From NCBI GenBank assembly GCA_030141605.1, contig JAQGDQ010000798.1:1-31869 (forward strand): 31,869 nt of DNA, written 5' to 3'. This document shows, in pieces, positions 2,129 to 31,869 of this stretch. Origin of the DNA: Tubiluchus corallicola. Lineage: Eukaryota > Animalia > Priapulida. The notes under the pieces are model-generated. The model was not told where the DNA came from and searched no databases. It was given only the letters and a program-made list of their open reading frames with translations. The stretch's first letter is position 1. The number at the start of each line of letters is the position of its first letter. Position numbers and translations under genes: made by a program.

Positions 2129-2194
2129 GTAAGTATAGGCGTACAAAGCCATACAGTCTAGGCCTTCTATACGAATCTAAGCTTCTGTTATTAA

Positions 2195-2852
2195 AGGACA
2201 AGAAAAGAGGTACCTGAAGTAGGTTACAGAAAAATCGCCTTAAAAAATTATGTTACTTTATAGCAATTTAGTGCATACAGCGTACTATTTATTTTCATTT
2301 TAAATCTCCTGCAATACTGTTCCGACGAGGCCATTACATGATGTCATATACGCACAACGTAAATCAAGGGAAGAAAAGGCAATGTTAAATTATGTCCCAA
2401 AAAACTTTCCATGCAAAGTTATATTACTTAGCATTTCGCTTAACAGCTTGAAAGACTTATATAAATAGAAAAGAAAATTATTAATTATTTAAATGTTTTC
2501 AACAATTCGTAAAATGTCGTTGACTCACCTCCAGGGTGCACCACTCACTAACCAAAAAACGTTTTTAATCTTATTGATAAGCTACAGCAATTTAAAAATT
2601 TACTTAATTAGTGATGTGTGCGCTATGAATGTTCTGATTATTTTTTAAAGTTTACACAATGTTATCTAAGCTTGTTTCAAATGACCTGTCGTCAAAATTC
2701 TGCGTCTAACAGTCATCGCAGGAGATTAAATTTACATATTATTTACAGCGTTACTGCTGATGCAAGCCCTGTGTGCAAAAAGGAAGTACGTAGGTGATAT
2801 AAATTTCAAGACGATTTTTAAGCTTTATGTAAGCGGAGGGTTTTCTAGTGCT
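2195..2852 (+). mobile_element. Non-autonomous DNA transposon (Kolobok-like MITE family 2), TTAA-flanked
   Basis: TTAA|AGGACAAGAAAA ... TTTTCTAGTGCT|TTAA: imperfect TIRs with a TTAA target duplication. A second copy lies at 25030-25623. Confidence 0.78.
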
Positions 2853-2964
2853 TTAAATCGTATCAAAATTCTCTTCGGATGTGTCTGCATTTACATAGTA
2901 ACAAGATTGTCAATTGCCCTCCATAACACTGACACTTAACATTTTTCGCGTTGTTACTTTTTAG

Positions 2965-3088
2965 CCTATATGTCCATCAGAAGGCAGGAAGAAGCGTCAA
3001 GCTCTCGCCGGAAACATCAAGAATGACGATGAACCGGAACTCATTGTTCGCGATGTCCTTATTATTGGAGACTTTGACGATAACGAAG
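2965..3088 (+). CDS. ZP-domain protein, exon D (furin site and external hydrophobic patch)
   Basis: Acceptor ctttttag at 2964. Reads PICPSEGRKKRQALAGNIKNDDEPELIVRDVLIIGDFDDNE; RKKR is a consensus furin site. Donor G|GTACGT. Not in the ORF track. Confidence 0.88.
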
Positions 3089-3538
3089 GTACGTTCAAGT
3101 AGTGGATGACGGTAATGATGCTTTTACGAAGCTATTACGTAATACGTTTCTATCGTTTTCAACAACAGTACATACCAATGAAAATCATCATCATACGCCC
3201 ACAACGTCTATTGTAGACATTGGGCAGGCAGAACTCTAAAATAAAAGAAATCTGCCATTAAGACAGGTAAACACAGCAGTAATCCAGCAAAAAAAACTAG
3301 ACACTGCTATGCCAGTGGGTTGTCAGCAAGATTACTATGGCTTTAGATACTGCCGCAGCCCCATCTACTGGTGAGGCAGTTAAATATTTTACAATGTTCG
3401 GCCACGCTAAGCGCAAATAACAAGATTCTTCAATTTGCTAAATTAATTATATAATTACCGAAGACAGGCATAAGAGTAAATGAATGTTGTTATTTGCCAC
3501 ATTAGTTTTATATATTAATGTTGTAACGTTTTTTCTAG

Positions 3539-3652
3539 TTTACGCCAATGAAGATGGAGTCGTACCACTGTCACAACTGCCAAGCACCACTGTAGTCAAG
3601 AACCCAGACACACAAGACAAAATATGTATGAACATCGTAGCGTTCGCTCTAG
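3539..3652 (+). CDS. ZP-domain protein, exon E (juxtamembrane)
   Basis: Acceptor ttttctag at 3538. Reads VYANEDGVVPLSQLPSTTVVKNPDTQDKICMNIVAFAL. Donor G|GTAAGT; phases 1/1 are consistent. Confidence 0.85.
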
Positions 3653-3995
3653 GTAAGTTTCTAAAATATCCTAAAAGTCATTTTGTGTGTCAGGTTAGTT
3701 ATCCAACACCAAATTTCTGATAGCTTGATAACAGATGGCGCTCGACTTGCACTTGTTAATAAAATACTTATTTCACAAAGTACCCAAACTATTTAGAAAA
3801 TAATTACTGCACTTATAACGTAACGTATTATAGCTCTATAATTGAAAACTAACAGCTTAATTACTGCATTATTGGTTATAAAAGGATTATTTAATCTTAA
3901 ACGTAGCGAATACATTTATTTCGACTCCGAAATACCACATCTCATCACAAAAACACTGATGTACGTTTATTTTGAAATTTGTTTATTTTTTTCAG

Positions 3996-4123
3996 CTATT
4001 GCATTGTTTGCCGGTATTTTCTTGTTGTCAACGGTGATTAACGTTGTCACCCTGTGTGCCAGGTCACGATCCAGGAAGGGATCACAATTCAGTTCAACAT
4101 ACGACAACCCAAGCTACCAATAA
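3996..4123 (+). CDS. ZP-domain protein, terminal exon (TM helix and cytoplasmic tail)
   Basis: Acceptor tttttcag at 3995. Reads AIALFAGIFLLSTVINVVTLCARSRSRKGSQFSSTYDNPSYQ*: hydrophobic helix, basic stop-transfer, stop TAA at 4121-4123. Confidence 0.88.
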
Positions 4124-6321
4124 ACCATCTCAGAACAGTACTTATTACCTGCTTATAAAAAAAAGTATTTCCGTGCGAACAAAATGCTTCTGCTTACGGG
4201 AAGCGTTTCGTTTGCTCAGCAAAGACAAAATGCAAACTTCTCAAAATCTGCTTCTACTTTACGAATTTTGGCGAGAAGAAAAATATCTTGATAGCTTTGA
4301 AGAAGGAAGAAGTATTCTTACTCGTAGTGTCCAGCTACTAGCTACTTATTCTGTGATCTAGTGGACTGTGTCCACATGTTAACCGCATTTTGTATAGATT
4401 AATTTTATAAGCCCTATGAGGCAGCTATTGTGAGACATTTTGGGGCGTTGCATGTCATATTTTCGCTATACATAAGACACTCGTCATACAGTGATTGCAT
4501 TGTTGATTATTGAACGAAAACCAGTTCCAGGCAGTACGTTCAATAGCTCTGAATTTATGTATAATGAGATGTATGATGTTTTATAAAGAACGGCTTTTGC
4601 ATTGTGCACTCATTAGACAGGAGGGCCTAATCATGAATACGTATGATTAGAACTGCAAATGAAGCTAAAGTCTGCACGTTCTTTTTACCAAACACTTTCG
4701 TGTATCTTTGTACATAGCTCTGAAAATGTCATTCTCAAATGTAAATATTGCATTTAGAAGGTCTATGTTATCTTTCAGGCTAGCTTGGGTACAGTGAAGC
4801 CAGGTGTATTAATTCTAGAGTGACATTATTCATTTTGAATTACCTGTAGAGTTTGTTGACATGCTTGGTCGCTCTTGTATTGAGTGGTTTAGATAGCTTT
4901 AGAATAGAAAAAAATCCTGTTTTAGTAGTATAGTAGTTGTGAGTTCAGTAGGCCACTGTTGTAGAACCAGTATGTCTTTTTGTGATTTCTGAAGATTGGC
5001 TTGAAATTTGTTATACAGATCCTCAAACGTTTGTAAGTTTATTTATTTGCTTAATAGTTTCTGTTAGTGTTTATTTGATAATAATTCTTTTCATCTCTAG
5101 CCATTGCCTAATTATTGATTTTTTGCAACTGTTTAAAGTGCATGCGTATGCGCGTGTTTTTGTGTAGGCGTGCATGTGTGTGCATGTGCATGCTGATTTG
5201 TGAATATGTTAGGAAGTTTGTTGGTTAGCAAATTTTTGCGTTTGTTTTGTAATGCCATATGTAATGGTTTAATTTTGAATCATCTTCTGCTTCAGTGTGC
5301 TTGTTGTTAATTTGTTAACGCTTGTTTCTCATTTACTCGCACATTTACTGTTGCTTTATTTTTGTTGATATTCTTTTTTCTTGTTCTATTGCAGTTTCAC
5401 CTTCTTCTTTTTTACAATGAGTGGAAAATGAAAATAAAATCTGTAAAACAAATAGCCAGTTTTCTACAGACTATATTATTATTATTATGGATCTCCATAG
5501 CGCATGTGCACGCACGTTTGTCTTAGTGATGTGATAATTTTGTTAATGGTTAAATATTGTGTGCTGTTGTTGTATTATGCAAATGCGTGCAAGCAACGTG
5601 GTTGAATTACCCTTTCAATAATTTACTTACATCAGCTAACGTGTAGCAATCTCATAATACTTAATAATACTGATTAAGAAAGCTTTAGCACAGTAGAAAA
5701 AGGGGTGACAAAAATCAAAAAATGAATTGAATTTTGCACATGCAATGAAGCTGAACGTCTAACGACACTAATTACATAGTAAATTATTAATTATTTTTGC
5801 TCATCTGGCATTTCCGTGCCAAATCGTGAAAAAAAATTATTATAATTATTGTTTGACTGACATTTCAGCGTGTCTTGAGCAATACATTTGTATACAATAA
5901 TAATAATTTTGTAGTACGATAATAAGTGGTTGTTGTATAGTGAAAAGTAGCGAATCAATATCAAAGATGTGTGCGAGTGTTAAACTTAACCTTGTTGAAG
6001 TCAATCCGTAGCAAGAGAAAGACTTGTAAAATAATAAAGAGCAATAGTAACATACTGTGCATATGCATGCCATAATGAGATTATTAAACCACACTGTCTG
6101 GTTTATTCTATGTATATGTAAGTATGATTAATAGAGTTTATTTTTGTGTAATATATCACATGGGAAAATGAACATGTGTGTATATAAGGTTTGTGATGTT
6201 CCCAGAAATAAACATTTTTTATTTCTGTAACCCCACGTGTTTGCGTTATCATTTTCTAACAGTCATAGACTTGAACGCATAAGTTTTTAACACTAAAGTA
6301 ATCAAAGGCATCAGTCTTATG

Positions 6322-7581: not shown

Positions 7582-8033
7582 AGGACAAGAAAATGGCCAA
7601 CCAAAGTAAGCCTCAGAAAATTCGCAATAAAAAGTTATATCACCTAAGTATAATCTTAAGCGAGTAAAATGCTCACGTTTTCGCATTTACTCCAACTTTT
7701 GTAAAATATTTCAATAGCTGCCGTTAACGTTGGCGCAGACATGTTTCATTTAGTCCGCCAGTTGAAAAGCCAGCATGTGACTGATCACGTGGCATGACAT
7801 CACTGGAACACAGTCGCAGTGAGTTCTGAGCACGTGTACTATAAATATTTGTGTTGTGGTTTTTTGACGCAAATATGGCGCCGCCGTGACCGTCTCGCGG
7901 GAGTATTTGAAAAGAAAACAAACAGGAAATTCTTTTAACGTGAGTACGACAAACGCTTAAGATTGCCTCTAGCTGTTATAATTCTTTAGCGAAATGTTCT
8001 GAGACTTGCTTTAACTAGGCCTTTTGCTGTCCT
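7582..8033 (-). mobile_element. Kolobok-like MITE family 1, near-complete copy
   Basis: Left ttac|AGGACAAGAAAATGGCC, right GGCCTTTTGCTGTCCT|ttaa: imperfect TIRs with TTAA-like flanks. Inverted homologue of 1354-1801. Confidence 0.78.
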
Positions 8034-9170
8034 TTAACCTTATTGATAATTACTCATTTGAAAAGCATTATAACTTTGCAGACGTTCTCCAATAAAACAA
8101 CACAAGGCAACAATGAGGACAAATAACTTTTTAATACCATTGCAAATTTGTTAAACGTTTACTATGGACCAAACTGAGTAAAATATACCACAGGCAAACT
8201 CGATTCACTAACCAAAAATGCAAATATTTTCAACTGTAAAATCTGAAACAGGGTAATGCAGTTCTGAATAATGTCAACAATTTTAATTCCACAAAGGTTA
8301 TAAACTGGTTTAACCGATTACTTAGCTAACAATGACTAAGAAATCAACAGGAGTAGGACTGATTGTAGAGCATTACTTCAAGTTCAGAAACAATTATAAC
8401 TCAAGTTCAAAAAGCATTATAACTCGAGCTCAGAAAGCATTATCTGGCAACACTACTAGCATTATACATTCACTAAATTTGTAAATGTACGGTAATAACG
8501 ACATCACTACAACAACATGATATAAAACACGCGTATTTTACTTTTAATGTAGAAAAACGAGAAATTTATCTTGTCATATCGAAAAACTTTTCCAAAAAAC
8601 AGCATAACTATAACGACTGCAGTGTGTACGTACTTGTTCTGAATGAAATTAAAAATAAGTTTCGATTACATTAATCATGTGATTCAAAATGATCCACGCC
8701 ATTTGCCATTACCATGCAGCTATACCTTCCAATGTTCTTTATTACTTAGTTCTAATCACATAATCGATATCGATCCAATCAATATGCAAATATTGACTTG
8801 CTCTCGATTACGTATGGCAATTTTTCGGACCATTACAGAAAAGGCAGTGGCTACAATCTAATTACGATAATACCAATATTGCTCTACTAGCGCCAAGCAG
8901 TGTTTAATATTACATTGTATTCATGAGCAAAAGTTACAATGTTTGAAGTTTTTAGGCAAATATCAAATGTATAATAATTGAAAATACTGGAGGGCAGATC
9001 TTAATTCAGTGTCAATGTACGTTTTATATTTACGTCGACTGTAGCTTATTACAGAAAAGTAAGTATTTATAACAAACTAGGTAAATTGCTGCGCTTATAA
9101 AAGATTGCAATTAACTTACATATAAATTCTTGATTCTATTAGTAAAATTCGCTAGTATTTTTTTCATAAA

Positions 9171-10461
9171 CAGTAAACCATGTGCATCTTACAGCCCAGC
9201 AAGCTGCACAGTACTTGTGCATCTTACAGCCCTGCAAGCTGCACAGTAAATGTGCATCTTACAGCCCTGCAAGCTGTACAGTACAACATGTGCATCCTAC
9301 AACCCTGCAAGCTGCACAGTACATGTGCATCGTACAGCCCAGCAAGCTGCACAGTACATGTGCATCTTACAGCCCAGCAAGCTGCACAGTACATGTGCAT
9401 CTTACAGCCCAGCAAGCTGCACAGTACATGTGCATCCTACAACCCTGCAAGCTGCACAGTACATGTGCATCTTACAGCCCAGCAAGCTGCACAGTACATG
9501 TGCATCTTACAGCCCAGCAAGCTGCACAGTACATGTGCATCTTACAGCCCTGCAACCTGCACAGTAAATGTGCATCTTACAGCCCTGCAAGCTGCACAGT
9601 ACATGTGCATCGTACAGTCCTGAAAGCTGCACAGTACATGTGCATCTTACAGCCCTGCAAGCTGCAGTACATGTGCCTCTTACAGCCCAGCAAGCTGCAC
9701 AGTACATGTGCATCTTACAGCCCAGCAAGCTGCACAGTACATGTGCATCTTACAGCCCTGCAACCTGCACAGTAAATGTGCATCTTACAGCCCTGCAAGC
9801 TGCACAGTACATGTGCATCGTACAGTCCTGAAAGCTGCACAGTACATGTGCATCTTACAGCCCTGCAAGCTGCAGTACATGTGCCTCTTACAGCCCAGCA
9901 AGCTGCACAGTACATGTGCATCTTACAGCCCAGCAAGCTGCACAGTACATGTGCATCTTACAGCCCTGCAACCTGCACAGTAAATGTGCATCTTACAGCC
10001 CTGCAACCTGCACAGTACAACATGTGCATCCTACAGCCCTGCAAGCTGCACAGTACAACATGTGCATCCTACAGCCCAGCAAACTGCACGGTACGTGTGC
10101 ATCCTGCAGCCCTGCAAGCTGCACAGTACATGGGCACCCTACAACCCTGCAAGCTGCACAGTACATGTGCATTCTACAACCCTGCAAGCTGCACAGTACA
10201 ACGTGTGCATCCTACAACCCTGCAAGCTGCACAGTACAACGTGTGCATCCTACAGCCCTGCAAGCTGCACAGTACAACGTGTGCATCCTACAGCCCTGCA
10301 AGCTGCACAGTACAACGTGTGCATCCTACAACCCTGCAAGCTGCACAGTACAACGTGTGCATCCTACAACCCTGCAAGCTGCACAGTACAACGTGTGCAT
10401 CCACAACCCTGCAAGCTGCACAGTACAACGTGTGCATCCTGCAGCCCTGCAAGCTGCACAG
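9171..10461. repeat. 35-bp minisatellite (TGTGCATCTTACAGCCCAGCAAGCTGCACAGTACA), with 33- and 38-bp variants
   Basis: About 36 head-to-tail copies with no unique spacers. Confidence 0.97.
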
Positions 10462-10896
10462 CTTGAACCAAGAGTGCTGTACAAAGATACATCGTGTAAC
10501 GGGAAATATATACAAACACTACTAGCTACTTCAACTATATAAGATCATTTACAATTTAAACATTATGATAATAATACACAACGTGCGAATCTAAAATTGC
10601 TTAATTAACATTTTAAAATCTTTATCTATAATGGTTCTATATATACTGAAAAACTTCAAAAAATTACATGCTTTGCATAACACGGACACTGTAATAATGC
10701 GACGACAGTGAGTTAGGTATATCTCCGCAACTCGCATTTAATTAATTTATTTATTTACACAACAAACAATCAACGATTTTTATATGAAACTATATCAGCC
10801 TTCGTTAATGTCTTGAACACTGCAGATTTTGCACACTTATTATCAGCATGCCAATTAAAATCTATGACAAAGTACGAAACAAAATCATCGCTAACA

Positions 10897-13992: not shown

Positions 13993-14616
13993 GAATATTT
14001 TACAGTTAACATAATTAAATTCATCTTTTCCAAATAATAACAACTTCTACAGATCATTAGTTCCTAAGGCAGTTATATTGAGGCTTTCAGGCAGGAGTAT
14101 TTCATTTAGTTTATCAAACATTTAGTTTAGCAAACATTACAACCCTAATCTGTTGATACAATGGACAGTGCAAGAAAAAGTGTTTGATTGAAGCGAAAAA
14201 CCAAAAAAATGGATTTTTTTAAAATTATTTTAAATGTTTTCCGAGAAATGTAAGTTTAAAAATGCTTTCGTAAAGTGCTAGACATTATTTAGAGGTCATT
14301 CGCTTAGAAATAGAGCTGCTTTTCTTTAGTTGTTACAGATGAGCAAACATGGCTTTCACGACGAACAGTTTTTGAGAAAATGATTTATTAAAAAAAGAAA
14401 ACTGTGGCTTGCAATTGGTGCCAGAAAAGTTTCCTCAAAATATCTAAACTTTGCAAAGTTTTTAAAAATACGAACACTAAAAATGTTTATTTAGGAAAGC
14501 TGTCATATTTAAGGCTGGTGGATACCCTGTAGTTCTCACGCTGCTAAAACTGCTTTGGAATGCGCTGAACCACTTCAAATGAGGAGATTATTCTAATCTT
14601 ACTTTGTTCGGGGGCG

Positions 14617-15350
14617 CTACCTGTGGTTCAGGTAAACACTTCACAAGGCTTATAATTGAGCTGCTTCCTTGTGTGCAGAGAGCATGCCTCAAGTGGTCAA
14701 AAGTGGTGGTCATTATCGTTGCTTTTTCAGAACTGTTGAAGATTAAAATCTTTCTTTGTGTAAGGGGATACAACCTGCCGCTCAGGTAAATACTTAACAA
14801 GGTCTATAATTACGCTGCTTCCTTGTGTGCAGAGAGCATGCCTCAAGTGGTCAAAAGTGGCGGTCATTATTGGTGCTTTTTCAGAATTGTTGAAGACTAT
14901 TAAAATCTTTCTTTGTGTAAGGGGATACAACCTGCCGCTCAGGTAAATACTTAACAAGGTCTATAATTACGCTGCTTCCTTGTGTGCAGAGAGCATGCCT
15001 CAAGTGGTCAAAAGTGGCGGTCATTATTGGTGCTTTTTCAGAATTGTTGAAGACTATTAAAATCTTTCTTTGTGTAAGGGGATACAACCTGCCGCTCAGG
15101 TAAATACTTAACAAGGTCTATAATTACGCTGCTTCCTTGTGTGCAGAGAGCATGCCTCAAGTGGTCAAAAGTGGTGGTCATTATTTTCAGCAGTTTTTTA
15201 ACAAAACTGAACTCAGGCGAGATTGTTGAAGATTATAATCTTTCTTTGTGTGCAGGGCATGAACCGCGCACTCAACTCAAACACGTCACAGGATTTGTAA
15301 AGTCATTATAAGCTGCTCTTTGAGTGGGGAGAGCACCACAGGTGGTCAGT
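14617..15350. repeat. 154-157-bp tandem repeat, ~4.5 copies
   Basis: ctgcttccttgtgtgcagagagcatgcctc recurs at 14661, 14815, 14972 and 15129; a degenerate copy lies near 15313. Confidence 0.95.
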
Positions 15351-16873
15351 AATTTGGCCTTTTGTGTTATTTTAAGTTCTTTTCTAAGCATCGCAGCTTT
15401 GAGAGGCAATGATGAAGTAAACTGACCATACGCATCACTTCCTGTCAAGATTTTGAAAACATTAATGAAAACTTAAGTACATACTAGTCTTTAATGACGA
15501 GTAGCTTTCGTGGAATGAAAGTAAAGATTGCAATATTCTATCAAAAAGGGAGTACTGCTGATGTGCTTGACGTGCGCAAAATGAAAATGTAAAGTCTAAC
15601 ATTGACTTCATATTTGATTTCATAAATGACTCAGTTTAATCGGTGAACTTAAATTACAAACAAAATTTTAGATAAGTTTGCAAATTAGTAAAGCATGACA
15701 CTGTCATACTGACAAAATCCTTTATAACATTCTCTAAATTGACTTTAAACAGACTAATTAATTAAGCGTAGTTATTGCTAAATAATTATACGCAATATAT
15801 AAATATACATATATGAAAAAAGACGTTCTGGCACCGCACTGTATATAAGTTGTTTGAGACCTCAAGCATTTTGACAATTCTTCTTATCCATTAATTATGT
15901 TTACTGTTTAATTCTGACATACACACTTCATCTTCACTTCCTGTGTCCCCTTAAATTTCATATTCATCAGCTTCAAGCTTAAATACATGTACAGCAAAAG
16001 TGGCCGCCATATTTTTAAATGAAGAATGCCCACAACTGTGAAATTTCCTCAATAGATCGTTAGAAAAATCACTTTGCAGAGCTATAGGCTGCAGCTGCAT
16101 GTTTGCAGCGCTTTTCAGTCATCAAAGTAGAAAATATGATGTTGCCAGAATGTAAAACGCTGCAATGTAAAATTTTGCCTACATAAAAAGACCAAACCGG
16201 GTAATAAGTTGCCCCACATCAGGTTAACCCATATTTGGCACTCGTACTTTGTAAGAAAAGTCTGAGGAATAGTTTTTAACAAAGTCGAGATATGATGGCA
16301 TAAATTGAAAAATATTTAATCACCACTATACTTTCGTCGTCTTCATCAATATAAAAAAACTGAGCAAAAATTGCTGAGGGAATTTTTAACCCAACTTGGT
16401 CGTCTAAGGGTTAAAGTATTAGTTAGGTGAAGCTTCCGTAATATAATTATGTAGTACTGTGTAACTTTTGCCCCTGCAATTAGAGGGTCTCGTTTGAAAT
16501 AAATTTCTAGATAAAGATATAGTAATAACAATGTAATCTAATTCTTTTAATGATTAGAAACAGGAGATGACAGTACAGGGAGTTTTTTAAATTTTTGAAT
16601 GGTGGTGAAACACGACTAACCCTAAAGTAGGCACTGATAATGTTTACATTTCGCTGCACGAATCGGTCATGCGATTCTGAAAAACTAATCCGTGTTTACA
16701 TTAAACCGCTAAACGTTTTCGTTTTGGCTGCATTGTAAACATGTTATTAGTTGAAATGTCATTATGTCCGTTGACGCCACAAACATTTTAAAACGATTTT
16801 TAATTTACCCATTCACTGTTGTTATGGTGCTTCACAACAAGCAAGAAAAGTATCACCCACGCTGCTCTTTTTA

Positions 16874-17408
16874 ATGTTACTACTTTTGGTAGTTATTTTC
16901 GTGCTGTATAAATGTGAAAACAGTCATTTAGAGATTCAGATTTGCTTTAAAAATTGCTCCTCTCTTACAAATAGTTTAATGCACAAATCATCAGATGAAA
17001 TTTTGCTATTTGTTGGAATTATGAGTTATTCGATGCGAGTGGACAGACGAAATGCCGTTCGATCAACATGGTTGAAGTGGTGCAAAGGCCTAAACAACTC
17101 GGTTTGCTTGTTTTTTGTTTCAATCCAAGATACGTATGAGAACAAATATAACTATTCATTGCTGCAACCTCTGCTTGAAGAGAAAAAATTACACAGTGAC
17201 TTGATACTAGCAGAGACACCTGATGGTATGAATTTTGGGAAACGGATGACTTGGATGATGAATTGGGCTTCGGAAAGATATAATTTCAAGTACTTCTTAC
17301 GACTAGATGACGATGTTTTTCTTTGCATAAGAAAAGTAGGAGACGAACTTGCTCATTTTAAATTCAGAAAAGTTAATTGGGGCTTCAGACTCTGTGAAAA
17401 AAAGGAAG
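16874..17408 (+). CDS. GT31 family beta-1,3-glycosyltransferase-like (Galactosyl_T), exon 1
   Basis: N-terminal signal anchor LLLLVVIFVLY; motifs LFVGIMS, RRNAVRSTW, EE...DLIL, K...MNWA, FKYFLRLDDDVF (DxD). Donor G|GTTAGT at 17408/17409. The true start may be upstream. Confidence 0.88.
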
Positions 17409-18095
17409 GTTAGTAAAGTCAATTTTAATTCTTGTAGCTGATTAGTAGCCTATTGGCGACCCCCTCATATAAGCCGAAAAAAGAGGTTTTTGTTTCTTAA
17501 CCTTCTTGGATATCCACAAAAGTGCTGATATTGAAATGATCCATACCCATAAGTCAAACAGCTGCATTTCCAAAGACCCCTTACCAACCTATTGAATAAA
17601 TCTAACTGAAGGGTCAAAAAGGTTTTACAGACTTTTGAATATTCATAATTATAGCAGATGACGCCGTAGAAACAAAATAATTCATTTGTCTAGAATACTC
17701 ATGCTTTTATGTTGCGTGACTAGTTTGTTTTCAATGTGGTGGTGTCAAAATACGGATGAAATGTAAAAACATGTAAGCAGATTCAAAAAGTCGCCTTTGT
17801 GTTTGTGAAATGGCAATCGTGGGCATGTGTTCACAGAGCACCCAGCTATACGTGTAAAGACTTGTTTGTGTTGGCGGATCCAGGCAACGAGTATCCTAGG
17901 GTAAATAGAACCAGAGCCGAGCTGGAGGGAAATTCTCGACATAAGTGTTTCTTTTTCAATGATCCGTTTATACATAGTAGGTGGTACAAATGCAAAGCGT
18001 CCAGATTCATCAGTTATAATCGGTTTATTATAAGTGGGGTACAATGATGTAGTGTGACAAGACGAAATATCGTGACTTGCAGAAGAGCTGACGGT

Positions 18096-19019: not shown

Positions 19020-19370
19020 AGAAAAAATAAGTTAAGAACCCACAGAACCTTCAAAACCCAATGTAAAATGGAAAACAAAATTCACTAAACTTAGAATAAG
19101 TTCTCATAAATTGCAAGAACGCAAAAAATTCCAGCAGAGAATCGAATATGTCAATTTTCTTTAAAGTCAGAATTAGAGGATAAACTTCATTTTGTATTAC
19201 ATTGTACTTTATATGACGACTTGAGAGCTAACTTATGTGAAAAACTGAAAAAGATTATACCGACTTTTGCTGTCACGGCTAAACAAGAGAAATTTAAGTC
19301 TTTAATGGATCAGAATGGCTCAGATGTTGTTAAAATAATAACCAACTTTGTATTTAATGCAATAATTTAC
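19020..19370 (+). mobile_element. Decayed non-LTR retrotransposon 3' end (CR1/L2-group-like C-terminal zinc-finger region)
   Basis: Fragments KNKLRT...FK, FTKLRISSHKL, RICQ, EDKLHFVLHCTLYDDLR match the LRxSSHxL...C..C...ED..HF.L.C..Y..LR motif. Confidence 0.7.
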
Positions 19371-19377
19371 ATAACAG

Positions 19378-19666
19378 TGTTGATATTTAAATTCCATGAA
19401 AGTATTGACATTTAAATTCCATGAAAGTATTTATACTTTAATTCCATGACAGCATTGATACTTCCGTGACGATGTTGATATTTAAATTTCATGACAATAT
19501 TGATACTTAAATTCCATGACAGTATTGATGTTTAAATTCTGTGACAATATTGATACTTAAATTCAATGACAGTATTGATGTTTAAATTCTATGGCAATAT
19601 TGATAAATAAATTCCATGACAGTATTGATGTTTTAATTCTGTGACAACATTGATATTTAAATTCCA
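19378..19666. repeat. 25-bp minisatellite (TTGATATTTAAATTCCATGACAGTA), ~11-12 copies
   Basis: Visible directly in the sequence. Confidence 0.93.
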
Positions 19667-21611
19667 CACTCGTGTTTCTGACGTGAAAATGCTGTAAATA
19701 GATTATTGAAAAACTAACACCTGTTCATTATTAACTTCTAAACTGTCCAATTACTCTAAATTAATGTTTCTTAATTAGGGAAACTGTTATCTGTTCTGTA
19801 GTAACGGTATGTTTTGTACCTGTCATATTTTTGCCATAATTTTTTGGTTAGTGCAATAAACTCATACTATTAAAAATGGATTTTTTATGAGCGTATTGTA
19901 CTGTACTGTGCGTATTGAAAATTACAAATAGAAGACAAAGATTCACTTATCATTGAAATTTAACAATTATTCTGATTAAAAAAATAAACGTATTTCCAGC
20001 AAAAGAATGATGCTCACACTTTCCGCTTTATTAAGGTAGAAGGATTGTCGAAATACAGATACAAATAGTCTAGACGGTCATTCATTGCAAACTGTATGCA
20101 AGCCCTGTAATACGTAGATCGCAGAGCGTCATTCAACCAGCAGGGGCCAACCATACAGTAGAATTTGCAGTGTAATTCGTACAGATGATTGACAATTCTT
20201 AGTAAATGTTGATTGCCAGCAAGTTCTAGAGCACATGAGCACTAGAATCATACAGTAATTTAAAGAACTGTTAAAATTTATCAAGTTTTCACGAGGTATT
20301 GTTTTTGGATTTTAAAATACTTTAATTTAAGTTTTCACCAGGGGCGTCGTGCACCAAAAAAATTAGGGGGGCCCGACTGTATATAATGGTGGAACTTAAC
20401 TGTTTAAAAAACGTATAATTTTGAATTCCCACTGTATTTTGCGTGCAAGAAAAACGATTTATTTATTCCCAACTGTCATTTAACTTAAAGCTATAGCAAC
20501 GAAAACTTAATTAAAATTAAAAATTAAATTAAAATTTAATTAAGTACTTATTAGCTGCCAGGAATCCAAAGGTTCGGCGAAAAGACGACTACCAAAACGT
20601 ATCAACCTTTAACTTAATATTTTTAATAATTACTAAACTTTTAATTCCGAGTCAAGATGATGTTGAACAAACAACAAACGTTATTTTTAAATGATTTCTT
20701 TTCACGCTAAAACACCGCTTCAAGTTAAAGACATTTGTTTCCGAGAGGACATGTGCGTTTATAATTTACACTTAGAGACTACATGACGCGGTCCAGACCT
20801 ATTGGTGACGTCATATTCCAATGTCAGAACATTTCGGAAAATGGCGTTATTTTTATAGTGCATACTTCTTTGTGCAAGCGAATCGAATCAGCTGCTTAGC
20901 AACACCGATGCGGACACATACGTGACAATACATTTCTTGTAACTTTTATTATGATATTTTACATTTTATTTAACAAGATTATTAAACAAATTGTTAAAAA
21001 CTTATTATTTAGATTGATTAGATTAATTAATAGATAGATCAATTTATCAACAGTAAGAAGCGTACATTGTTTGTGCGTGTGTCATTTATATGAGAATGTC
21101 ATTTATTCCAAAGAATAAAGGAAAACATTTTCTCTGGAGAGACTGTAAAGAGTGTAGATTTGATGTATAAATAATTTACAAAGACAGGTGACATAATCTA
21201 GGAGAGACAAAAGTATACTAGAAGGAAGATAAATTGCGAAGAAGATAAATTGACATGATTCCAACATTTTTAGCAATTTTAAGACTGATCATTTTGACGC
21301 GTGAATTCCAGTCGAGACGATATGCTCTTCCAAAATTATGTCTAAGACTTTATATATTTATATATAAATATAAATTATGACTTTATATATTATGACTTTG
21401 TATATTTTATTGTAAACTAAGAATAAAAGCATCTTCAAGATTTAGCACTGGTGAACACCACAATAATATTAACAGCTCGTTTCATGCGAGGTTTTTGCAC
21501 GTGACGCATTGTGTGCGATATGTAATAGCTATTCAATCAAGAATTTGTGACCCCCTTAAAGGGCAGAATATCTTTTCTGACAGGATGTTGGAAATGCCTG
21601 TAGATATCTAC

Positions 21612-22105
21612 TAATCAGGTGCTTGAGGTTGACAGTAGATGTCTTCTGACCCAATGCTTGTGGCTGCATTTCTCTATGCCTGTGATGCATCCTAACCAGG
21701 TGCTTGAGGTTGACAGTAGATGTCTTCTGACCCAATGCTTGTGGCTGCATTTCTCTATGCCTGTGATGCATCTTAACCAGGTGCTTGAGGTTGACAGTAG
21801 ATGTCTTCTGACCCAATGCTTGTGGCTGCATTTCTCTATGCCTGTGATGCATCCTAACCAGGTGCTTGAGGTTGACAGTAGATGTCTTCTGACCCAATGC
21901 TTGTGGCTGCATTTCTCTATGCCTGTGATGCATCTTAACCAGGTGCTTGAGGTTGACAGTAGATGTCTTCTGACCCAATGCTTGTGGCTGCATTTCTCTA
22001 TGCCTGTGATGCATCCTAACCAGGTGCTTGAGGTTGACAGTAGATGTCTTCTGACCCAATGCTTGTGGCTGCATTCTCTATGCCTGTGATGCATCCTAAC
22101 CAGTT
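21612..22105. repeat. 81-bp tandem repeat, 6 copies, with a degenerate flank to ~22240
   Basis: Near-identical units caggtgcttgaggttgacagtagatgtcttctgacccaatgcttgtggctgcatttctctatgcctgtgatgcatcYtaac. Confidence 0.97.
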
Positions 22106-25029
22106 GCTTAAGATCGTCAATTCTGATTAGGTGCTCAAAAGTGGCAATAGACATATTTTCCTCCCAGATGCTTGAGTTTGCCAATAGATGTCTTCTGTTC
22201 AGATACAAGATTTTTTTCAATAGATATTTTCTGACCAGATGTTTACCGGATTCTATATGAATCATGTTTCCGAAAATAAGTCCACATATCTAGCAAAATG
22301 TTCATCCATTACCATTTTCTGTACAAATCATTTATCACAAAAATTTACTAAACCTCTGTCTCCACTACTGGCTTTGAACCAATGCAGTTACGTTTACAGC
22401 AGTTTTCATTTTTATATACAAGGTCATAAAATGATCTTCATTAGAATGCGCCCGGCATTAGACTGTAATGAAAGTTCCAAAGGCACAATTACACAAGTTT
22501 GTTTCATTGGAATTGACTAAACGATAAAACTGCAATAAGATAAAACGTTCAAATAAAATGAATTTCAAATGAAAAACAGAGAAAAAATAAAAAATCAAAT
22601 CTAGATGTTGGATTAAATGAGACAAGTAAATGACGTACATCTAGGCGCCAACATCCAAAATTAAAAGACTGAATATAAAATAATTAGCGCTAAGCGTAAA
22701 AAAAGCAAACGCCTGATAATATAACGTGATTTATGGGTGGTAAATATATTTGTTAATTAATGAAATTATTAATCAACCTATGAAATCGAATGAAGAAAGA
22801 TTTTAAACAAACAACTACACTAAAAGAGAGATCTTGTTCTTGCTTTCATAGTGCCGTGCACAGGAAGAAAGGCCGGTTCGCCCTCTGTTAGGAGAAATGC
22901 AAATTCATTACGCTACATTCTACTGCCATCTACAGGCGAATATCGCATTCAGTCTCACCTGCCTCGGTCAGAATGATTCTAATTTATACAGCAACAAAAT
23001 TATAAAACTCATTTTCAAAATTGTGAAACAAACCGTAGGAAATTTATCCGTTTATAAGTTACCGTTGACGTAATTATACACATTTTCACATAATATAAAC
23101 AACATAATTTTGTTTAAGCCTTTTAAATTACATCTGCTATTTATATGAGCTAACTAAGTTTAATTTCTGTCAATACGTCAATTTATATGAATTTTCACAA
23201 TTGAGTAGTTTACATCAGTCAAATGAAATTAAATTTTAATGTACGTGCGTAAAGTAATATTAAAGCACTTGGACAGCAGTCTTTCAAAATTTACACATGA
23301 TGCAAAATTAAAAGAAAAACTGTTCTTCTAATTAAATGTAATTTGGTGCATAAACTTGGTACATCAATATGGTGCATAAATTAAGGCATAATTACTGGGC
23401 TAATTAATTGACAATATTGTTTTAAGCAAAATTACCTAGTCAATAAGTTCCGCAATAATAAAATGAAATAATTATGGTAACAACCACTAACACAGAACCC
23501 TAGAATATTCAGGAAAACTTTAATAGATCATAACAAACGAACCATCATGGAACTCGTGGATCTAAAAACATTTTAACCTAATTAAAGCCATTTAATTAAA
23601 AATAATTCTCTTGTTTTATGGAAAAATGAAAATAGCGACAAAAAAGACGATCAAAACGTGTCACATTTTTTTATTTTTCGGGAATTTTCAGTTTTCAGGT
23701 CGCAAAAAGTAGTTTACTAACACAAAAACGTTGAAAATTTACCACAAACTTTTCTATTCTTTTCGCAATTTTATGCGCAAGAATATTACAGACTTTTTAA
23801 GGCGGAGCAAAACTAAACTGCAGGTAAAATTACCATCCAGAACGTTTCGGCTGTGATTAACAAAGCGAACCTTTTACCGTGCAACATTTAGCGGCATAGA
23901 CTCCACTGCAAAGAGAATTGTGAAGTGTGTGATGCGACGTTTGAAAGTGCACTTGTGTAAAATTGTAAATGTCTTAGTGAAGTGGAAAACATTCTTTACC
24001 GTTGATCTTGAATGCAAAATGTGTGAATTTGTTCATAATGTGAAAAACGTGGTTTTTGTTTTTTCCGGTGCAAAGAAAATTACAGTAATTTTGATTTCTT
24101 GCTTATTAAATTGTGGCTGCGTTGCGTTTAATGTAATTCAATGCAAAACTTTATGTGCGCTGCTATATTTGTGGGTGACTTGCTTATTTTAATCCTCTAA
24201 TAGAAACAGTAATAATAACTTCAATTAATTCATTTTCATTTAGTTTATTTTGTATATTTTATTCCAATAAATTTGTTGGTTTTTTTTTGGTTTCACCGTG
24301 AACCACATTATTAATTATAATTATCCTTATTTTAATTATTAAAAAGACGTTTGCTATGACCAAAGTTAATATGTGTAATTATTGTAAAAATTTGTGGCTA
24401 TTATATTATGGTTCGGTAGTGGTACATAGGATTTTGATGTTTTGTATATATATATATATATACATAAGCTTACTTTCATTTTTATCAAAGATTGGTAAGG
24501 CATCTTTTCTGATGGTGGGCTGGCTTACCAGTTTTGTAAATTTCTTCTCGAAACGCCACGACTTTACAGTTTAATTCGGAAAACTAATTAGTAACCTCTA
24601 TTTAAATGTAAACTTGTCTCAACCAAATAAAGCTAAAGTAAACTTTAGATTAGCGTTGCTAATTAGCAATATTATTGTTAAAGATAAGACACTATTAAAG
24701 TGTTTAATTAAGAATTTCATGCAAAAATTATAGAGCAATAATTAACCTTCCCTACGATTATGGTTCATACTATTCTGGACACGCTTTTTTGTGAATGTTT
24801 CGCTGAAGTTTAAAATGTAAACGTCTAACTGATCAAAATGTCTAACTGACTTATTTTGAATCTACCTCAAATAAATAAAAACACCTCAGACTGTAAAATC
24901 ATTTTAGTATCAATATTTTACAATTAAAGCAAGTGACTTAATGACTAATTCCCCCAGCGAACTATTTTGTAATTTGCATGTAGGTTAGATAATAAGAACA
25001 CTTAAGAATAATAAAGCCAAATCCTTTAA

Positions 25030-25623
25030 AGGACAAGAAAAGGGGTACCTGAAACAGCTTTCAGCAAAATCGCCTTAAAAATCGCCATATATTTTTGATT
25101 GTTTTCATTTTCATTTTCCCGCAATACTGTTCCGATCGCGCCATTACACAACGCACAACATAAATCATGGGAAGAAAAGGAAATGTTAAATTATGTCTCA
25201 AAAATTTTTCCATGCAAAGTTATATTACTTAGCATTTCGCTTATCCGTATCAAAGACTTATGTAACTTGAAATAATTATTTAAAATGTTCGTGCCAATTA
25301 GTAAAATGTCGTCGACTCACTAACCAACAAACTTATTTCTTATCTTGTTTTACAAGATACAGTAAATTTTACTTAGTTAGTTATGTGCGCTACGAGTGCT
25401 TTGATTATTTTTTCAAACTTTACTCTGTGTTATCTAAACTTGTTTCAAACGACTTATCGTCAAAATGGCATCGTCTAACGGTCATCGCGGGAGTTTTAAT
25501 CTACATGTTTTATACAGCGTTGCTGCTGACGCAAGCCCTACATGCAAAAAGGCAGTACGTAACTGGTATAAAATGTCAAGACGATTTTTTGAGCTTTATG
25601 TAAGAGGAGGGTTTTTTGTGCTT
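25030..25623 (+). mobile_element. Kolobok-like MITE family 2, second copy
   Basis: TTAA|AGGACAAGAAAAGGGGTACCTGAA...; colinear with 2195-2852 through ...gaggagggttttttgtgcttt. Confidence 0.78.
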
Positions 25624-26579: not shown

Positions 26580-27856
26580 TTAGCTTTGCTTTATCTCATT
26601 GTCGTGACTATCCACTGTGGGCAGAACTGTTTGAACTGGCCATTCTGGTTCTGGTTTGTATAGAAATTCTGGGCCATGCAGCCATCTGACACTTGTGATT
26701 AAATCTCTTGCAGACAAACCTCGCGATGCATGATTTGCTGGATTTTCATCTCCAGAGACATGCCTCCATTGGCTGGGAACTGTTAAGCCGTGTATGGTAG
26801 CTAACCGGTTAGCCACAAAGGTTTTGTATCTGGCCCTTTCATTGTTGATATAGCAAAGAACAATTGTGCTGTCAACCCAAAATGTAGAAGTACCTACAGG
26901 AAAGCTTAATTCCTTCCGTACCATAGAATCAACTTTTACTGCAAGCACAGCAGCCTGACAGTTCGAGGCGTGGCAAAGTGACTTTCTTAAAGGGGGTCAG
27001 TCTTGTTGTACTCACCACAAATGTGCTGACGATATCTCCTGAAGCATTTGTTGATCTAAGATATGAGACAGTTCCAAGGGTTCTTTCGGATGCATCTGAG
27101 AAATGACGAAGCTGGTATAAGACAGCTTCAAAGTTTGGTGGTGTAAAACACCGACTCAGGTGCAAGTTCTTCTAACCGCTTTCCTCATTGTTGTTTCACA
27201 TGATTCTCCAAAGGTTCATTCCAGGATTTCTTCAATCGTGTTTCTTCCTGGAACAGTAACTTCGTTTGCAGGACATAGGGACTTATTATACCGATATGAT
27301 GAAGCCATTACACTCAAAAGACCACGGCGTGTCATCGATTTTTCTTTTTTCCTAACAAGAATACTGAAATGGTCTGCCTCCATGTTCCATGCAATGCCAA
27401 GAACCTGGTCAGCAGGCAAGGTAGAGTTATCTAAATCAATATCCTTCACTGATTTCCCTCTTTCTCCTACAGGGATAGAGTTAAGAACTTTTCGGTCATT
27501 GCTGCACCATTTTGTTAAATGGAAGCCACCATGGTGAAGTAGACTGGTAAGGTGTTCTATCATTGCAATACCTTCCTGAGTTGCTGAAAGAGACTTAAGA
27601 AGATCGTATACACAGAAATTGTTTGTACCACGGCGCTGTTGTACAAAGCTCTGTTGGCTGTTTTCTGGAGTGCATATGATGCAATACTTTGGCACCATAC
27701 TAAGCCAAAAATATGGACTGTCATCCTGTATATTTCAGGTTTTAGTTCTATATTGCCTGCAGGCCACCGCAGGAAACGGAGTACATCTCTGTCACCAGGA
27801 GTGACTCTTACCTGGTAAAATATACTCTGGATGTCAGCAGCGATTGCTATTTTACA
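26580..27856 (-). pseudogene. pol: BEL reverse transcriptase (N-terminally deleted) and RNase H
   Basis: IAIAADIQSIFYQVRV...LRFLRW...YRMTVHIFG; the YVDD motif has decayed to NFCVYDLL; RNase H motifs HFSDAS, PRLEL, WVDS, NPA. Confidence 0.9.
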
Positions 27857-28866: not shown

Positions 28867-29068
28867 CGCATGCAAGAAAGTGGAATGTTTTCTCTTAAAA
28901 ACATCACAGCGATTGGCTGACCTACATGATGCACTACTGTGGTTAAGCTTCAGGCAATTAAAACATAGTTTGTGTTGCTTGGCTACCTCTAGCCTTCCAG
29001 GTACAGTTAGCCTATTGAACTTGAAGCATTTCTGAAGCGGATGTGCTTCAGAACACAGGGTGCATGAA
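28867..29068 (-). pseudogene. gag: BEL Gag triple zinc knuckle
   Basis: Manual translation: CTLCSEAHPLQKC...KLCFNCLKLNHSSASC...RCDVFKRKHSTFLH. Confidence 0.88.
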
Positions 29069-29349
29069 AGGGAAGTCTTTTCTTAAGATTTGTCAGGTTC
29101 ACGTGTATGTGCACTAGCAAATGTTCCAGAACTAGCAAAAATATTTGCAGAATTAGACTTTGGTTTAGGCTTATAGGTGTCCTTCTTCTCGGATGGTTTC
29201 CTATGAAACGTGGGATCATTTCCAATATGTGCCTGTCTTTCTATGAAAGTGACAACATCAAAGATGTCTGGAATTCTCCCAGAAGATTTAATATTATGAA
29301 CCTCTTTCCTCCAGTGAGAATGAATGCCAATGAGTAATTTGTCAATGAT

Positions 29350-29755
29350 TTAAACGAGATTTCCTTGAGCATTAATCTCGGACAAATAACCTAAACTTGA
29401 CAGAGTTTCATAACAAGCACGCAACAAGTCTGCATATTCCTGTAATGTCTGATATTCCGCAGCCTTAATGGGTTTTAAATCCGAAATCTGTTTGATCCAT
29501 GCTTGAGTGATATTAAATTCATTTCCAAACCGCTCTTTTAGCATGTGCTTTGCTTTTGTGTAACCTACAACTGGGTCCATTGTCACACAGCAGTCAATAT
29601 AACGTTTTACTTTGTCACTGCAAAACTGAAGAAGGAGTGTTAATCTGGCAATATTGTCAGTTGTGTAATTCTCAACCGTTGTTTCAAACTGTTTAATGAA
29701 GCGACAATACTGCAGTGGGCTGCCATCGAATTTCTCTATCTCGATACCAGGCAAT
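29350..29755 (-). pseudogene. gag: BEL/Pao Gag core (DUF1759-like)
   Basis: LPGIEIEKFDGSPLQYCRFIKQFE...RLTLLLQFC...GYTKAKHMLKERFGN...LQEYADLL. Confidence 0.9.
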
Positions 29756-29989
29756 GGAAAACCATAAAACTGGTAAGGGGGTTTTACTGCTGGCAGAGGA
29801 CTCCCTTTGATTTCAGGTTGCTTGCCGCATAAAGGTGCCTGAAAGGAACTGCATCTATAAGACCTTTCTCGCCATCTATTATGAGCATCAGGAAGAAAAG
29901 AGTCGCTTTCCAAAGGCACATTGAAGCTGGACCTAAAATGTGCTGCTTGAACATTCAAATCTCTTGAGCGTGTCTTTGAAGCCGAGGCA

Positions 29990-30728
29990 GGTTCCACTTT
30001 ATTTGTGTAAAATTTCCACCACATTTTGATAAACTGCCTATCATGTTGTACATTCTGGCACAGTGGAGTAGAAACCTCCTCACTCTGAATATCGAACTTA
30101 TAGCACCACGGTTTATCTTGACCAATAAAATGAACTATCTTAACTTGATCTCGGTAGATCTCTATAGAGTATAGTACTTTGCAGACGTCATGTTATAGGC
30201 AAAGGGGAGGCGATTCCATTTGGTAAAAAACTTATTTAATAGACCCTGGTCCCCTCCGTCAAAACTTGCTTGAGTGTTTGCAAACGATAATAACTCGGTG
30301 TAAGTTACCATGCTTGGTTCAAATACAAACACACCGCTATTAAATGTGCCTGACCAACCAACATCGGTGACAGCAGAAAATTCTTTACGCAAGAATAATT
30401 CGTCATTATTCTGCAAAACTAATGTGTCTGCATCAAGAAAAATGCCCTTGGCATATTGCACCTGACCCCAGCAGTGAAGCTTTGAATAAGTGCAGTGTAG
30501 TTCGGGTCGCTCACAAAGAAGCTGCGTATCTATGTTTTGGTTCTCCCATCTTCCAACAAGCTCAACTTTGTCATAAACAGTGTCAAGTTGTGATATCATA
30601 AATGAGGAAACTTCATTCGTTACCATGATAACCATAGGGTGTTTGGTCCTAGTGGCTTTCAGAGAATGTGCTAAAACAGGGGCACTTTTGGCATAAAAGT
30701 CATTAGTGGCTAACGAGATATGTACTTC
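29990..30728 (-). pseudogene. GYG: Glycogenin-like GT8 catalytic domain embedded in BEL gag (intronless, one frameshift near 30160)
   Basis: LATNDFY, VLAHSL, RPELHCTYSKLHCW, FLDADTLVLQN.DELF, D.GW...FNSGVFVFEPS, SFDGGDQGLLNKFF, LPFAYN; after the shift, KIVHFIGQDKPW...FIKMWW. Colinear with glycogenin from memory of the human GYG1 sequence. Confidence 0.93.
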
Positions 30729-31179
30729 AATTGATTCTTCATAATTAGTATGATTATCTTTGCAATAATTTGCTACCCAATCTCTTGTTTGCCCTCTTTT
30801 GTCAACAAAGAAAACGACCTCGGAAGAACGTGGACTACCGGCTTCAAACTGAGCAAAGACAGTTGCCTCAGCGTCTGCTTGCTTAATTTCAGTAGCTATC
30901 TTCAACTGTTCTTGTTGCAAAACTAACTTTTGCTTTTCTTGTTCGAGCTGCAATTCATTTCATTAACTGCAATTTGGCCTTTTCTGCAAGTACTTGTTGC
31001 CTAATCATAAGAGCACCCTTTTTCGCTTCAGCTGACATTCTTTGTGCTGTTGCCGAAACAGTGGTTGATTTTGAACTACGTGAATGAGGCTAAGCTTTCT
31101 TCTTTGTCCCCACTGTCAGGTATAGCGGCAGGTGTAAGCTGCGTTTCATCTTCAGTTGAGCTGGAAGCTGCACCTTCGC

Positions 31180-31288
31180 TCTGCAACAGCCTATCAATTA
31201 ATTCGTGCTTCCGACCGCTAACAGGTAAACACTTGTCCTTAAGCATTCGCTGTAACTGAGGGACAGTTTTCTTACCTAAATCAGACAC
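31180..31288 (-). pseudogene. SAP domain at the Gag N-terminus of the BEL element
   Basis: (M)SDLGKKTVPQLQRMLKDKCLPVSGRKHELIDRLLQ fits the SAP consensus L.K.TV..L...LK...L..SG.K.ELI.RL. The start codon is GTG, probably a mutated ATG. Confidence 0.8.
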
Positions 31289-31869
31289 GCTTCAAAATAC
31301 AGCAAAGTACAATTCAGAGAAAGTAGATAAACTAGTGAGCTATGCATAAAATCCATGTGGTCAAACAGCAGCGATAACGTATGGTCTAATTCTTTATGCA
31401 CTATAATGCGCTGCTGTACTACTAGTATTCAGGCAATTAGGTAAACTGTACAACATATCAAAGCATTATCTGACAGTGTAGAAATTCACGTTATTCTACA
31501 CTAACATATTGAAATAATACCAGGTCGAAAATAAAATGTAATCTTAATTGGTATGACTGTGAATATTTCAAAACTTCAATACTATTAAACCCTAATTATT
31601 CACTCCATCTCAGAGCTTAATTTTCAACAGTGATTCATTTCGCTGCACTTACGCGAATTTAGTTCCAGGTCTGGTAGTAGACGGAGCCTATCAAGAGTTT
31701 TAAACTATACTATAATTCGCTAGCTACCGGCTAGTTCACATCCTTCTTTCACCTACATCCCCTATGGCATATAGTTACTATGTCATATACTTATTATATT
31801 TAGCCTTACTTCATGAAAATTTACACTTTTCCTTTAATTGTGCTAAATTCTTCAATCCTTTTGCCATTT

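What the first reader, a model, noticed from the sequence alone, without database searches (positions are those of the whole stretch)
30100..30720. Captured glycogenin keeps its catalytic residues and acceptor Tyr but lacks the glycogen synthase-binding tail
Seen: the DAD metal-binding motif, the K of KLHCW, the NSG motif, both Asp of DGGDQG and the His of VHF are present. YNMTSAKYYT aligns by eye with human YNLSSISIYSY, placing a Tyr at the Tyr195 self-glucosylation position. The only frameshift in the domain lies just after this Tyr (about 10 nt missing relative to the remembered human spacing). Similarity stops at WWKFYTNKVEP, the end of the catalytic fold, and no C-terminal synthase-binding motif or UTR/poly-A follows. 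Inference: trimming at domain boundaries, with conserved active-site residues and divergent surface residues, suggests selection for activity in the ancestral element.
Basis: partly seen in the sequence, partly recalled or inferred. Interest (0 to 1): 0.7.

Follow-up and report, generated by a model that had tools for sequence, protein, structure and literature searches.

The report
Jumping gene carrying glycogen-starter enzyme
A dead copy of an animal jumping gene carries, inside its capsid gene, the catalytic part of glycogenin, the enzyme that starts glycogen; the passenger was likely kept for a long time under loosened selection and likely dropped by the family's commonest form, and whether it ever worked as an enzyme is untested.

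Summary
Observation confirmed; interpretation partly supported. An intron-free glycogenin catalytic (GT8) domain lies at 30725-29989 (minus strand), in frame inside the gag gene of a decayed BEL/Pao LTR retrotransposon, between a coiled coil and the capsid (DUF1759). The DxD, His, Asp160/Asp163, Gln164 and Tyr195 equivalents are kept. One 10-base loss just after the Tyr shifts the frame, and no synthase-binding tail follows. Contigs from two samples show other domain-bearing copies, about 95% and 86% alike. They also show that the commonest form skips the whole block (29853-30756). A gag-type linker motif inside that block suggests loss by deletion. On selection: neutral decay from a typical glycogenin is rejected (0 of 168 simulations), but 12 of 74 invariant positions changed (sampled glycogenins change 5% or less), five of them in the lid. 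So constraint was real but relaxed. Catalytic selection is suggested, not shown; a folded passenger fits as well. dN/dS among copies and the host's own gene could not be obtained. No such fusion appeared in the protein or paper searches run. New variant of a known kind (enzyme cargo in an LTR element); interest 0.5.

The parts
31181..31282 (-). SAP domain at the N end of gag
   Evidence: Pfam PF02037 E 5e-9
30850..30959 (-). gag coiled coil; a frame break lies at its upstream end in this copy
   Evidence: matches 6 of 150 gag relatives at E up to 1e-3; same ORF as the GT8 domain
30168..30725 (-). glycogenin catalytic (GT8) domain, first part, human residues about 5-196, with DxD, NSG, DGGDQG and the Tyr195 equivalent
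   Evidence: PF01501 E 6e-11; human GYG1 E 1e-53; AlphaFold pLDDT 84, TM 0.90 to PDB 6eql
30165..30168 (-). the one frame break in the domain; the columns of human 197-200 are missing in this copy
   Evidence: two contigs of other copies that cross this stretch are 10 bases longer (records 11 and 19; exact place of the extra bases not shown)
29989..30165 (-). glycogenin domain, second part (VHF, KPW, WW helix), in frame with the capsid
   Evidence: E about 1e-8 to 1e-9 to glycogenins; ORF 30192-29353
29935..29958 (-). gag-type linker motif (PAM2-like; that name is recalled)
   Evidence: pattern L[NDS]xxAxx[FW] in 24 of 99 gag linkers (0.23 expected) and 0 of 197 glycogenin linkers
29853..30756 (.). 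block (GT8 domain plus linker) skipped by the commonest form of the family
   Evidence: joint 29852 to 30757 in run X4, loose ends at these places in X1-X3, depth drop in 4 of 4 runs
29383..29730 (-). capsid region, DUF1759
   Evidence: PF03564 E 1.5e-4, below the curated cut-off; 931 relatives at E up to 1e-10; 34 of 39 relatives scanned carry PF03564
27853..29350 (-). rest of gag, zinc knuckles and protease region, with several stops and frame breaks
   Evidence: tblastn of 7 full-length relatives; stops counted; knuckle and protease motifs read by eye (recalled motifs)
26586..27850 (-). broken RT and RNase H (Pao peptidase A17) region; the copy ends before the integrase
   Evidence: PF05380 E 3.5e-15; tblastn matches stop at about 26586

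Best explanation
A BEL/Pao LTR retrotransposon carries an intron-free glycogenin catalytic domain in frame inside gag; it was likely copied from a messenger RNA long ago, likely kept as a folded, partly constrained passenger in more than one element lineage, and likely lost by one deletion in the family's now commonest form. Shown: the in-frame position between coiled coil and capsid, the kept catalytic motifs, the missing tail, several domain-bearing copies, and a commoner form without the block. Inferred: RNA-level capture by template switching during reverse transcription into the loosely constrained gag N-terminal region. While the element was active the single gag-pol frame had to stay open and the domain had to fold, so core and metal/nucleotide-sugar residues were kept while the lid and a neighbouring loop drifted. 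The ancestral fusion would probably still have bound Mn and UDP-glucose and may have put a few glucoses on its own Tyr when Gag assembly brought domains together, but without the tail it would not recruit glycogen synthase. The benefit was small or nil. The window's copy is dead.
For: No stop between coiled coil and GT8 or between GT8 and capsid. Contigs join GT8 DNA to gag DNA in both samples: joints 30725-30863 in X1, X2, X4 and 29544-30607 in X1. Domain-bearing contigs about 95% alike (records 6, 13, 21) and about 86% alike (records 5, 14, 27). The 86% class stops matching at 30725, the first strand of the fold, and of the upstream DNA only a 31-base gag piece is shown to fit at 80%. Two-part branch fit: constrained part 0.49 (84 real glycogenins: median 0.15, max 0.43), unconstrained part 0.136 (real: max 0.057); neutral codon simulations give 0.16 and 0.256, with 0 of 168 matching either value. 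The same fit on this copy's capsid and RNase H gives an unconstrained part of 0 (log-likelihood drops 1.2-1.7 and 2.3-3.0 at 0.12-0.15), so the copy's own decay explains only part of the GT8 drift. Changes are uneven: 11 of 41 invariant columns up to residue 131, 1 of 33 after (P 0.009, cut chosen afterwards), 5 of 14 in residues 60-92. The skipped block holds a gag-type motif, which favours loss over gain.
Against: The host's own glycogenin was not found; if it sits on a longer branch than any sampled, part of the 'constrained' change is host history (a constrained part of 0.4 costs only 0.5 log units). Seven of 239 glycogenins share the window's six-residue-shorter loop, so unsampled donor lineages are plausible. 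Kept invariant columns alone do not beat decay. Summed contig depth is no copy number, the three S1 runs are one sample, tables 3, 4, 7 and 8 were cut, and the 86% class is tied to gag by only 31 letters. The branch model uses a BLOSUM-derived matrix and a quick tree. No RNA evidence either way.
Confidence: 0.5

Rival explanations
1. Selected enzyme: the domain was kept because it worked, glucosylating Gag or the particle, or pairing with host glycogenin to dock particles on glycogen granules, possibly with a changed acceptor.
For: All published active-site positions that could be mapped are kept: D102, D104, H212, D160, D163, Q164, T83, Y195, W128, and Ile for L214 as in 79% of homologues. 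Only 2 of 26 invariant polar or aromatic columns changed against 10 of 48 others. Conservation in the 86% class starts at the fold boundary.
Against: Nine kept residues at a 16% change rate is expected about one time in five (hand arithmetic, 0.84^9). Lid and 129-131 loop are altered. The commonest form lacks the domain, and other domain-bearing contigs have their own deletions (2 bases at 30349, a skip at 30198-30259, a skip at 29544-30607).
Confidence: 0.3
2. Recent neutral accident: a glycogenin retrocopy fell into gag in frame, hitch-hiked through a few rounds and decayed; conservation is inherited from the host gene.
For: 62 of 74 invariant columns is within the neutral range (P 0.21). 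Differences from other copies in gag and linker are near neutral: 8 of 19 and 3 of 9 silent against 28% expected (classed by hand; 3 rows at stop codons and 1 GT8 row left out).
Against: 0 of 168 neutral simulations match the branch fit; best database identity 55-56%; copies 14-15% apart share the domain.
Confidence: 0.15
3. Assembly chimera, or a host glycogenin gene interrupted by the element.
For: No listed contig spans the whole block; the host gene was not located.
Against: Both junctions are in frame with gag; the domain has no intron although the human gene has a splice site after c.143; independent contigs join GT8 to gag DNA in two samples.
Confidence: 0.05

Closest known systems
Glycogenin-1 (GYG1, CAZy GT8; PDB 3t7m, 6eql, 1ll2)
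   Same: GT-A fold (TM 0.90), about 50% identity, DxD/His metal site, glucose-type donor pocket, Tyr195 equivalent.
   Different: No synthase-binding tail; fused inside a retroelement gag; 12 of 74 invariant columns changed; Tyr197 lost in this copy.
Gat1 Skp1 alpha-galactosyltransferase (PDB 6mw5; bioRxiv 10.1101/764241, passages and section 13 read)
   Same: A glycogenin-like catalytic domain with no synthase-binding tail.
   Different: Only 31% identical. The window has the glycogenin-type Gln and Ile where Gat1 has Thr180 and Ser233 (mapping inferred from motif spacing).
Orchid Ty3/Gypsy elements with a captured AlkB m6A demethylase (PMC9289625, abstract and introduction read)
   Same: LTR retrotransposon carrying a host enzyme domain.
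   Different: There a separate ORF with shown activity and a clear RNA-related use; here in-frame gag cargo of a metabolic enzyme, activity untested.
Planarian Burro/GYPSM1 giant Gypsy elements (PMC6431247, passages read)
   Same: Host-derived domains (BIR, BCL2-like, MATH, dUTPase-like) built into the polyprotein.
   Different: Gypsy type, cargo after the Gag core, thousands of copies; here BEL/Pao, cargo before the capsid, a minority form.
BEL/Pao LTR retrotransposons (PMC3118150, passages read)
   Same: DUF1759 gag, Pao peptidase A17 region, domain order as in full-length relatives.
   Different: 0 of the 150 closest listed gag relatives carry GT8, and none matched the SAP piece at E up to 0.01.

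Membership tests
Glycogenin | GT8 / GT-A catalytic fold closest to glycogenin | tested here: met
   PF01501 E 6e-11; GYG1 E 1e-53 against Gat1 E 3e-23; Foldseek top 40 rows all glycogenin
Glycogenin | DxD plus His metal site | tested here: met
   D102, D104, H212 equivalents
Glycogenin | UDP-glucose-type donor pocket (D160, D163, Q164, L/I214) | tested here: met
   role of these positions from 10.1101/764241 section 13, numbering mapped by motif spacing
Glycogenin | Acceptor Tyr195 | tested here: met
   Y195 role from PMC12267440 passages
Glycogenin | Dimer contacts Y197-D160-W128 | tested here: inconclusive
   W128 and D160 kept; Y197 lost in this copy's break; letters in other copies not seen
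Glycogenin | [quoted passage not shown] | tested here: not met
   motif in 186 of 240 glycogenins, no hit in six frames of the window
Glycogenin | Family-level constraint on invariant positions | tested here: not met
   62 of 74 kept against at least 94.7% in 84 of 84 real proteins
Glycogenin | Self-glucosylation activity | not testable with these tools
   needs a bench assay
BEL/Pao LTR retrotransposon | DUF1759 gag and Pao peptidase A17 region | tested here: met
   PF05380 E 3.5e-15; PF03564 E 1.5e-4, under its cut-off, backed by relatives
BEL/Pao LTR retrotransposon | gag-protease-RT-RNase H-integrase order | tested here: inconclusive
   colinear with 7 of 7 full-length relatives up to RNase H; integrase absent from this copy
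BEL/Pao LTR retrotransposon | Two LTRs and target-site duplication | tested here: inconclusive
   no flanking repeat pair among those listed; copy is cut at the 3' side and the window ends 570 bases upstream of gag

The most novel reading that the evidence does not exclude
A retrotransposon lineage kept a working glycogenin in Gag so that its particles glucosylated themselves or docked on host glycogen granules, for example in glycogen-rich germ cells: a glycogen-pathway enzyme used as a particle coat or address label.
Probability: 0.2. Interest if true: 0.8.

Novelty: new variant of a known kind. Interest (0 to 1): 0.5.

Why it matters
Stable capture of host enzymes by LTR retrotransposons is described as rare (PMC9289625, abstract), and the cases seen in the papers read are nucleic-acid enzymes, lipases or signalling domains. 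A glycogen-priming enzyme inside BEL/Pao Gag would add a metabolic cargo. One genome seems to hold the domain-bearing forms, a diverged relative and the domain-less form together, so gain, drift and loss of a cargo could be measured directly. If the enzyme was active it would point to a link between retroelement particles and glycogen stores. If not, it is a clean example of how an in-frame passenger can look selected.

Tried and rejected
No whole genome was held, so the host glycogenin and full copies could not be read. Per-site silent/replacement counts among copies inside the domain were not obtained. No RNA holder was listed; this says nothing on expression. Searches for the same fusion elsewhere found none: 120 listed of 753 longer and 120 listed of 1279 similar-length hits carry no gag or pol family; 1 hit, without GT8, for the GT8-end-plus-capsid piece among longer proteins; 0 of 150 listed of 3017 representatives carry GT8; viral contigs none; metagenome contigs one 26% match, not followed; the Atlas gave generic GT8 clusters and no hit. 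These are weak negatives. The protein tree (quick version; careful search unfinished; 61 rows) leaves the domain on a 2.06 end branch with no supported sister, so no donor group is named. The six-residue gap at human 175-180 was first taken as a lesion and rejected: 7 of 239 glycogenins share it. The idea that the 86% contigs are the host gene was rejected as unlikely: they run 337 bases unbroken and rejoin gag DNA. The X4 bins with zero depth are not used as evidence. No complex prediction was run: a glycogenin dimer would pass by likeness to solved structures, and the unbroken piece lacks part of the interface. Chaikuad 2011 was not held; the lid range 60-92 is recalled.

Full report
Setting. 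The window is AT-rich, repeat-rich eukaryote DNA; no whole genome was held. On the minus strand from about 31290 to 26586 lies a decayed BEL/Pao-type element: SAP domain (PF02037, E 5e-9), coiled coil, capsid DUF1759 (E 1.5e-4), broken protease and RT regions and Pao peptidase A17 (E 3.5e-15). Seven full-length relatives align colinearly from 29763 to about 26586 and no further, so the integrase is missing. The capsid frame holds 9 stops down to 27853, several of them in out-of-frame stretches. The copy is dead.

Observation. The glycogenin domain spans 30725-29989. Its first part shares an ORF with the gag coiled coil (30959-30165), its second part shares an ORF with the capsid (30192-29353). 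It matches human glycogenin-1 at E 1e-53. The model of the first part (pLDDT 84, alignment of 81 rows) superposes on PDB 6eql with TM 0.90. The single frame change removes the columns of human 197-200. The synthase-binding motif of 186 of 240 glycogenins is absent from all six frames. There is no intron, although the human gene has a splice site after c.143 (PMC7046021, passage); whether the host shares it is unknown.

Other copies. Four runs (two samples, two studies; contigs only) were laid at 80% likeness. Summed depth over 29864-30631 is 195-481 in X1, 6-26 in X2, 4-7 in X3 and 0-18 in X4, against 1306-5085, 34-207, 24-138 and 11-129 in the bins 29000-29863 and 30728-31591. The tool warns that this is no copy number, but a joint 29852 to 30757 in X4 and loose ends at those places in X1-X3 show a form without the block. 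Domain-bearing contigs fall in two classes: 10 of 182, 20 of 363 and 13 of 230 letters different (records 6, 13, 21), and 48 of 337 and 30 of 202 (records 5, 14, 27). The second class stops matching at 30725, the first strand of the fold, and rejoins gag for 31 letters at 30863. Records 11 and 19 cross the window's break and are 10 bases longer, once an 18-base difference at 29854 is set aside for record 19; the place of those bases was not among the rows shown. Other contigs carry deletions of their own (30349; 30198-30259; 29544-30607). The tables were cut (40 of 249 letter rows, 12 of 55 indel rows, 32 of 373 piece rows shown).

Gain or loss. The 45 codons between the fold and 29853 hold a motif of a kind seen in 24 of 99 gag linkers (0.23 expected from shuffles) and 0 of 197 glycogenin linkers (a stricter pattern gave 4 of 99). 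It begins 10 codons after the fold. So gag sequence resumes right after the fold, and the common form lacks both cargo and a native gag motif. One deletion from a domain-bearing ancestor is the simplest reading. Transfer of the block between families by recombination is not excluded.

Selection. With 84 non-redundant glycogenins (from 230 of 240 hits), the window keeps 62 of 74 invariant columns; real proteins keep at least 94.7%; uniform decay predicts 59.1 +/- 2.9 (P 0.21). A fit that splits the branch into change at family site rates and uniform change gives 0.49 and 0.136 (LRT 18.1 for the uniform part); real proteins give at most 0.43 and 0.057. Neutral codon decay of real glycogenins to the same 49% mean identity gives medians 0.16 and 0.256, and 0 of 168 runs reach either window value, though 32 of 168 keep 62 or more invariant columns. 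The same fit on this copy's capsid (70 relatives) and RNase H (15) gives a uniform part of 0, with wide limits. Differences from the family in gag are near neutral (8 of 19 silent, 28% expected), at 2-4% of letters (records 2, 3, 9, 10, 18, 24). So the copy's own decay explains some, probably not all, of the uniform part. Changes cluster in the N half (11 of 41 against 1 of 33, P 0.009, cut chosen afterwards) and in residues 60-92 (5 of 14 against 7 of 60, P 0.04). Published functional positions are kept: Y195, D160, W128 (PMC12267440, passages), D102, T83 (PMC7046021), D163 (PDB titles), the metal Asp and His and the donor-pocket Gln and Leu/Ile (10.1101/764241, section 13). That many kept residues is suggestive only. 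The open caveat is the unseen host gene: the best of 240 listed hits is 55-56% identical, the tree gives no supported sister, and 7 of 239 unnamed-source glycogenins share the short loop.

Mechanism. Shown: in-frame cargo, motifs, missing tail, several copy classes, a commoner form without it. Inferred: capture of co-packaged messenger RNA by template switching; survival because the gag N-terminal region tolerates cargo and the frame must stay open; partial constraint for folding and perhaps for residual UDP-glucose chemistry; loss by deletion. Confidence 0.5, against 0.3 for selected enzyme, 0.15 for recent neutral accident and 0.05 for artefact.

Known cases. It works like other enzyme cargoes of LTR elements: orchid Gypsy AlkB (PMC9289625, abstract and introduction) and planarian Burro polyprotein domains (PMC6431247, passages). 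It is glycogenin-derived but not a glycogenin proper, since the tail and family-level constraint fail. No GT8-gag fusion appeared. Paper searches (listings and abstract starts only): glycogenin + retrotransposon, 16 of 16 listed, none on capture by title; 3 of 3; 15 of 22; 15 of 1416, none of the 15 holding 'glycogenin'; 20 of 215. Subscription papers and repeat databases were not searched, and no supplements were read; those of PMC3118150 hold element sequences that could bear on novelty. Earlier scan notes (unchecked, not tested here) report glycogenin-like domains fused to PKS and RNase III, often decayed; searches returned nothing.

Verdict. Real, unusual and apparently undescribed, with selection relaxed and activity unproven. 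New variant of a known kind; interest 0.5.

Noticed in passing
window 31181-31282 (-): A SAP DNA-binding domain heads this gag; none of the 150 gag relatives matched it at E up to 0.01, so it may be a second added module. It lies in the part shared with the common form.
   Followed up: partly
window 29853 and 30757: Loose ends of the domain-less form suggest a short tandem duplication of linker sequence at the junction (table 7).
   Followed up: partly
window 29544-30607: A further deletion form in run X1 removes most of the GT8 domain and part of the capsid.
   Followed up: no
window 16775-17410 (+): Galactosyltransferase (PF01762, E 8.5e-10) ORF of 212 aa, probably a host gene or piece of one.
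   Followed up: no
window 1751-2158 (+): Exon-like ORF with cuticlin C-terminal / ZP-C domain (E 1.8e-9).
   Followed up: no
window 1354-1801 and 7592-8036; 2191-2698 and 25026-25466: Dispersed repeat pairs of about 450 bases (one inverted, one direct, about 82-98% alike by piece) with related ends, probably a small non-autonomous element family.
   Followed up: no
window 9170-10500, 14588-15274, 19317-19711, 21530-22197: Tandem arrays of 35/38, 157, 25 and 81 bases.
   Followed up: no
proteins P0125, P0127, P0146, P0170, P0175, P0176, P0206: Seven unnamed environmental glycogenins lack the six-residue loop at human 175-180; they fall in several places of the quick tree, so the loop may have been lost more than once.
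   Followed up: partly
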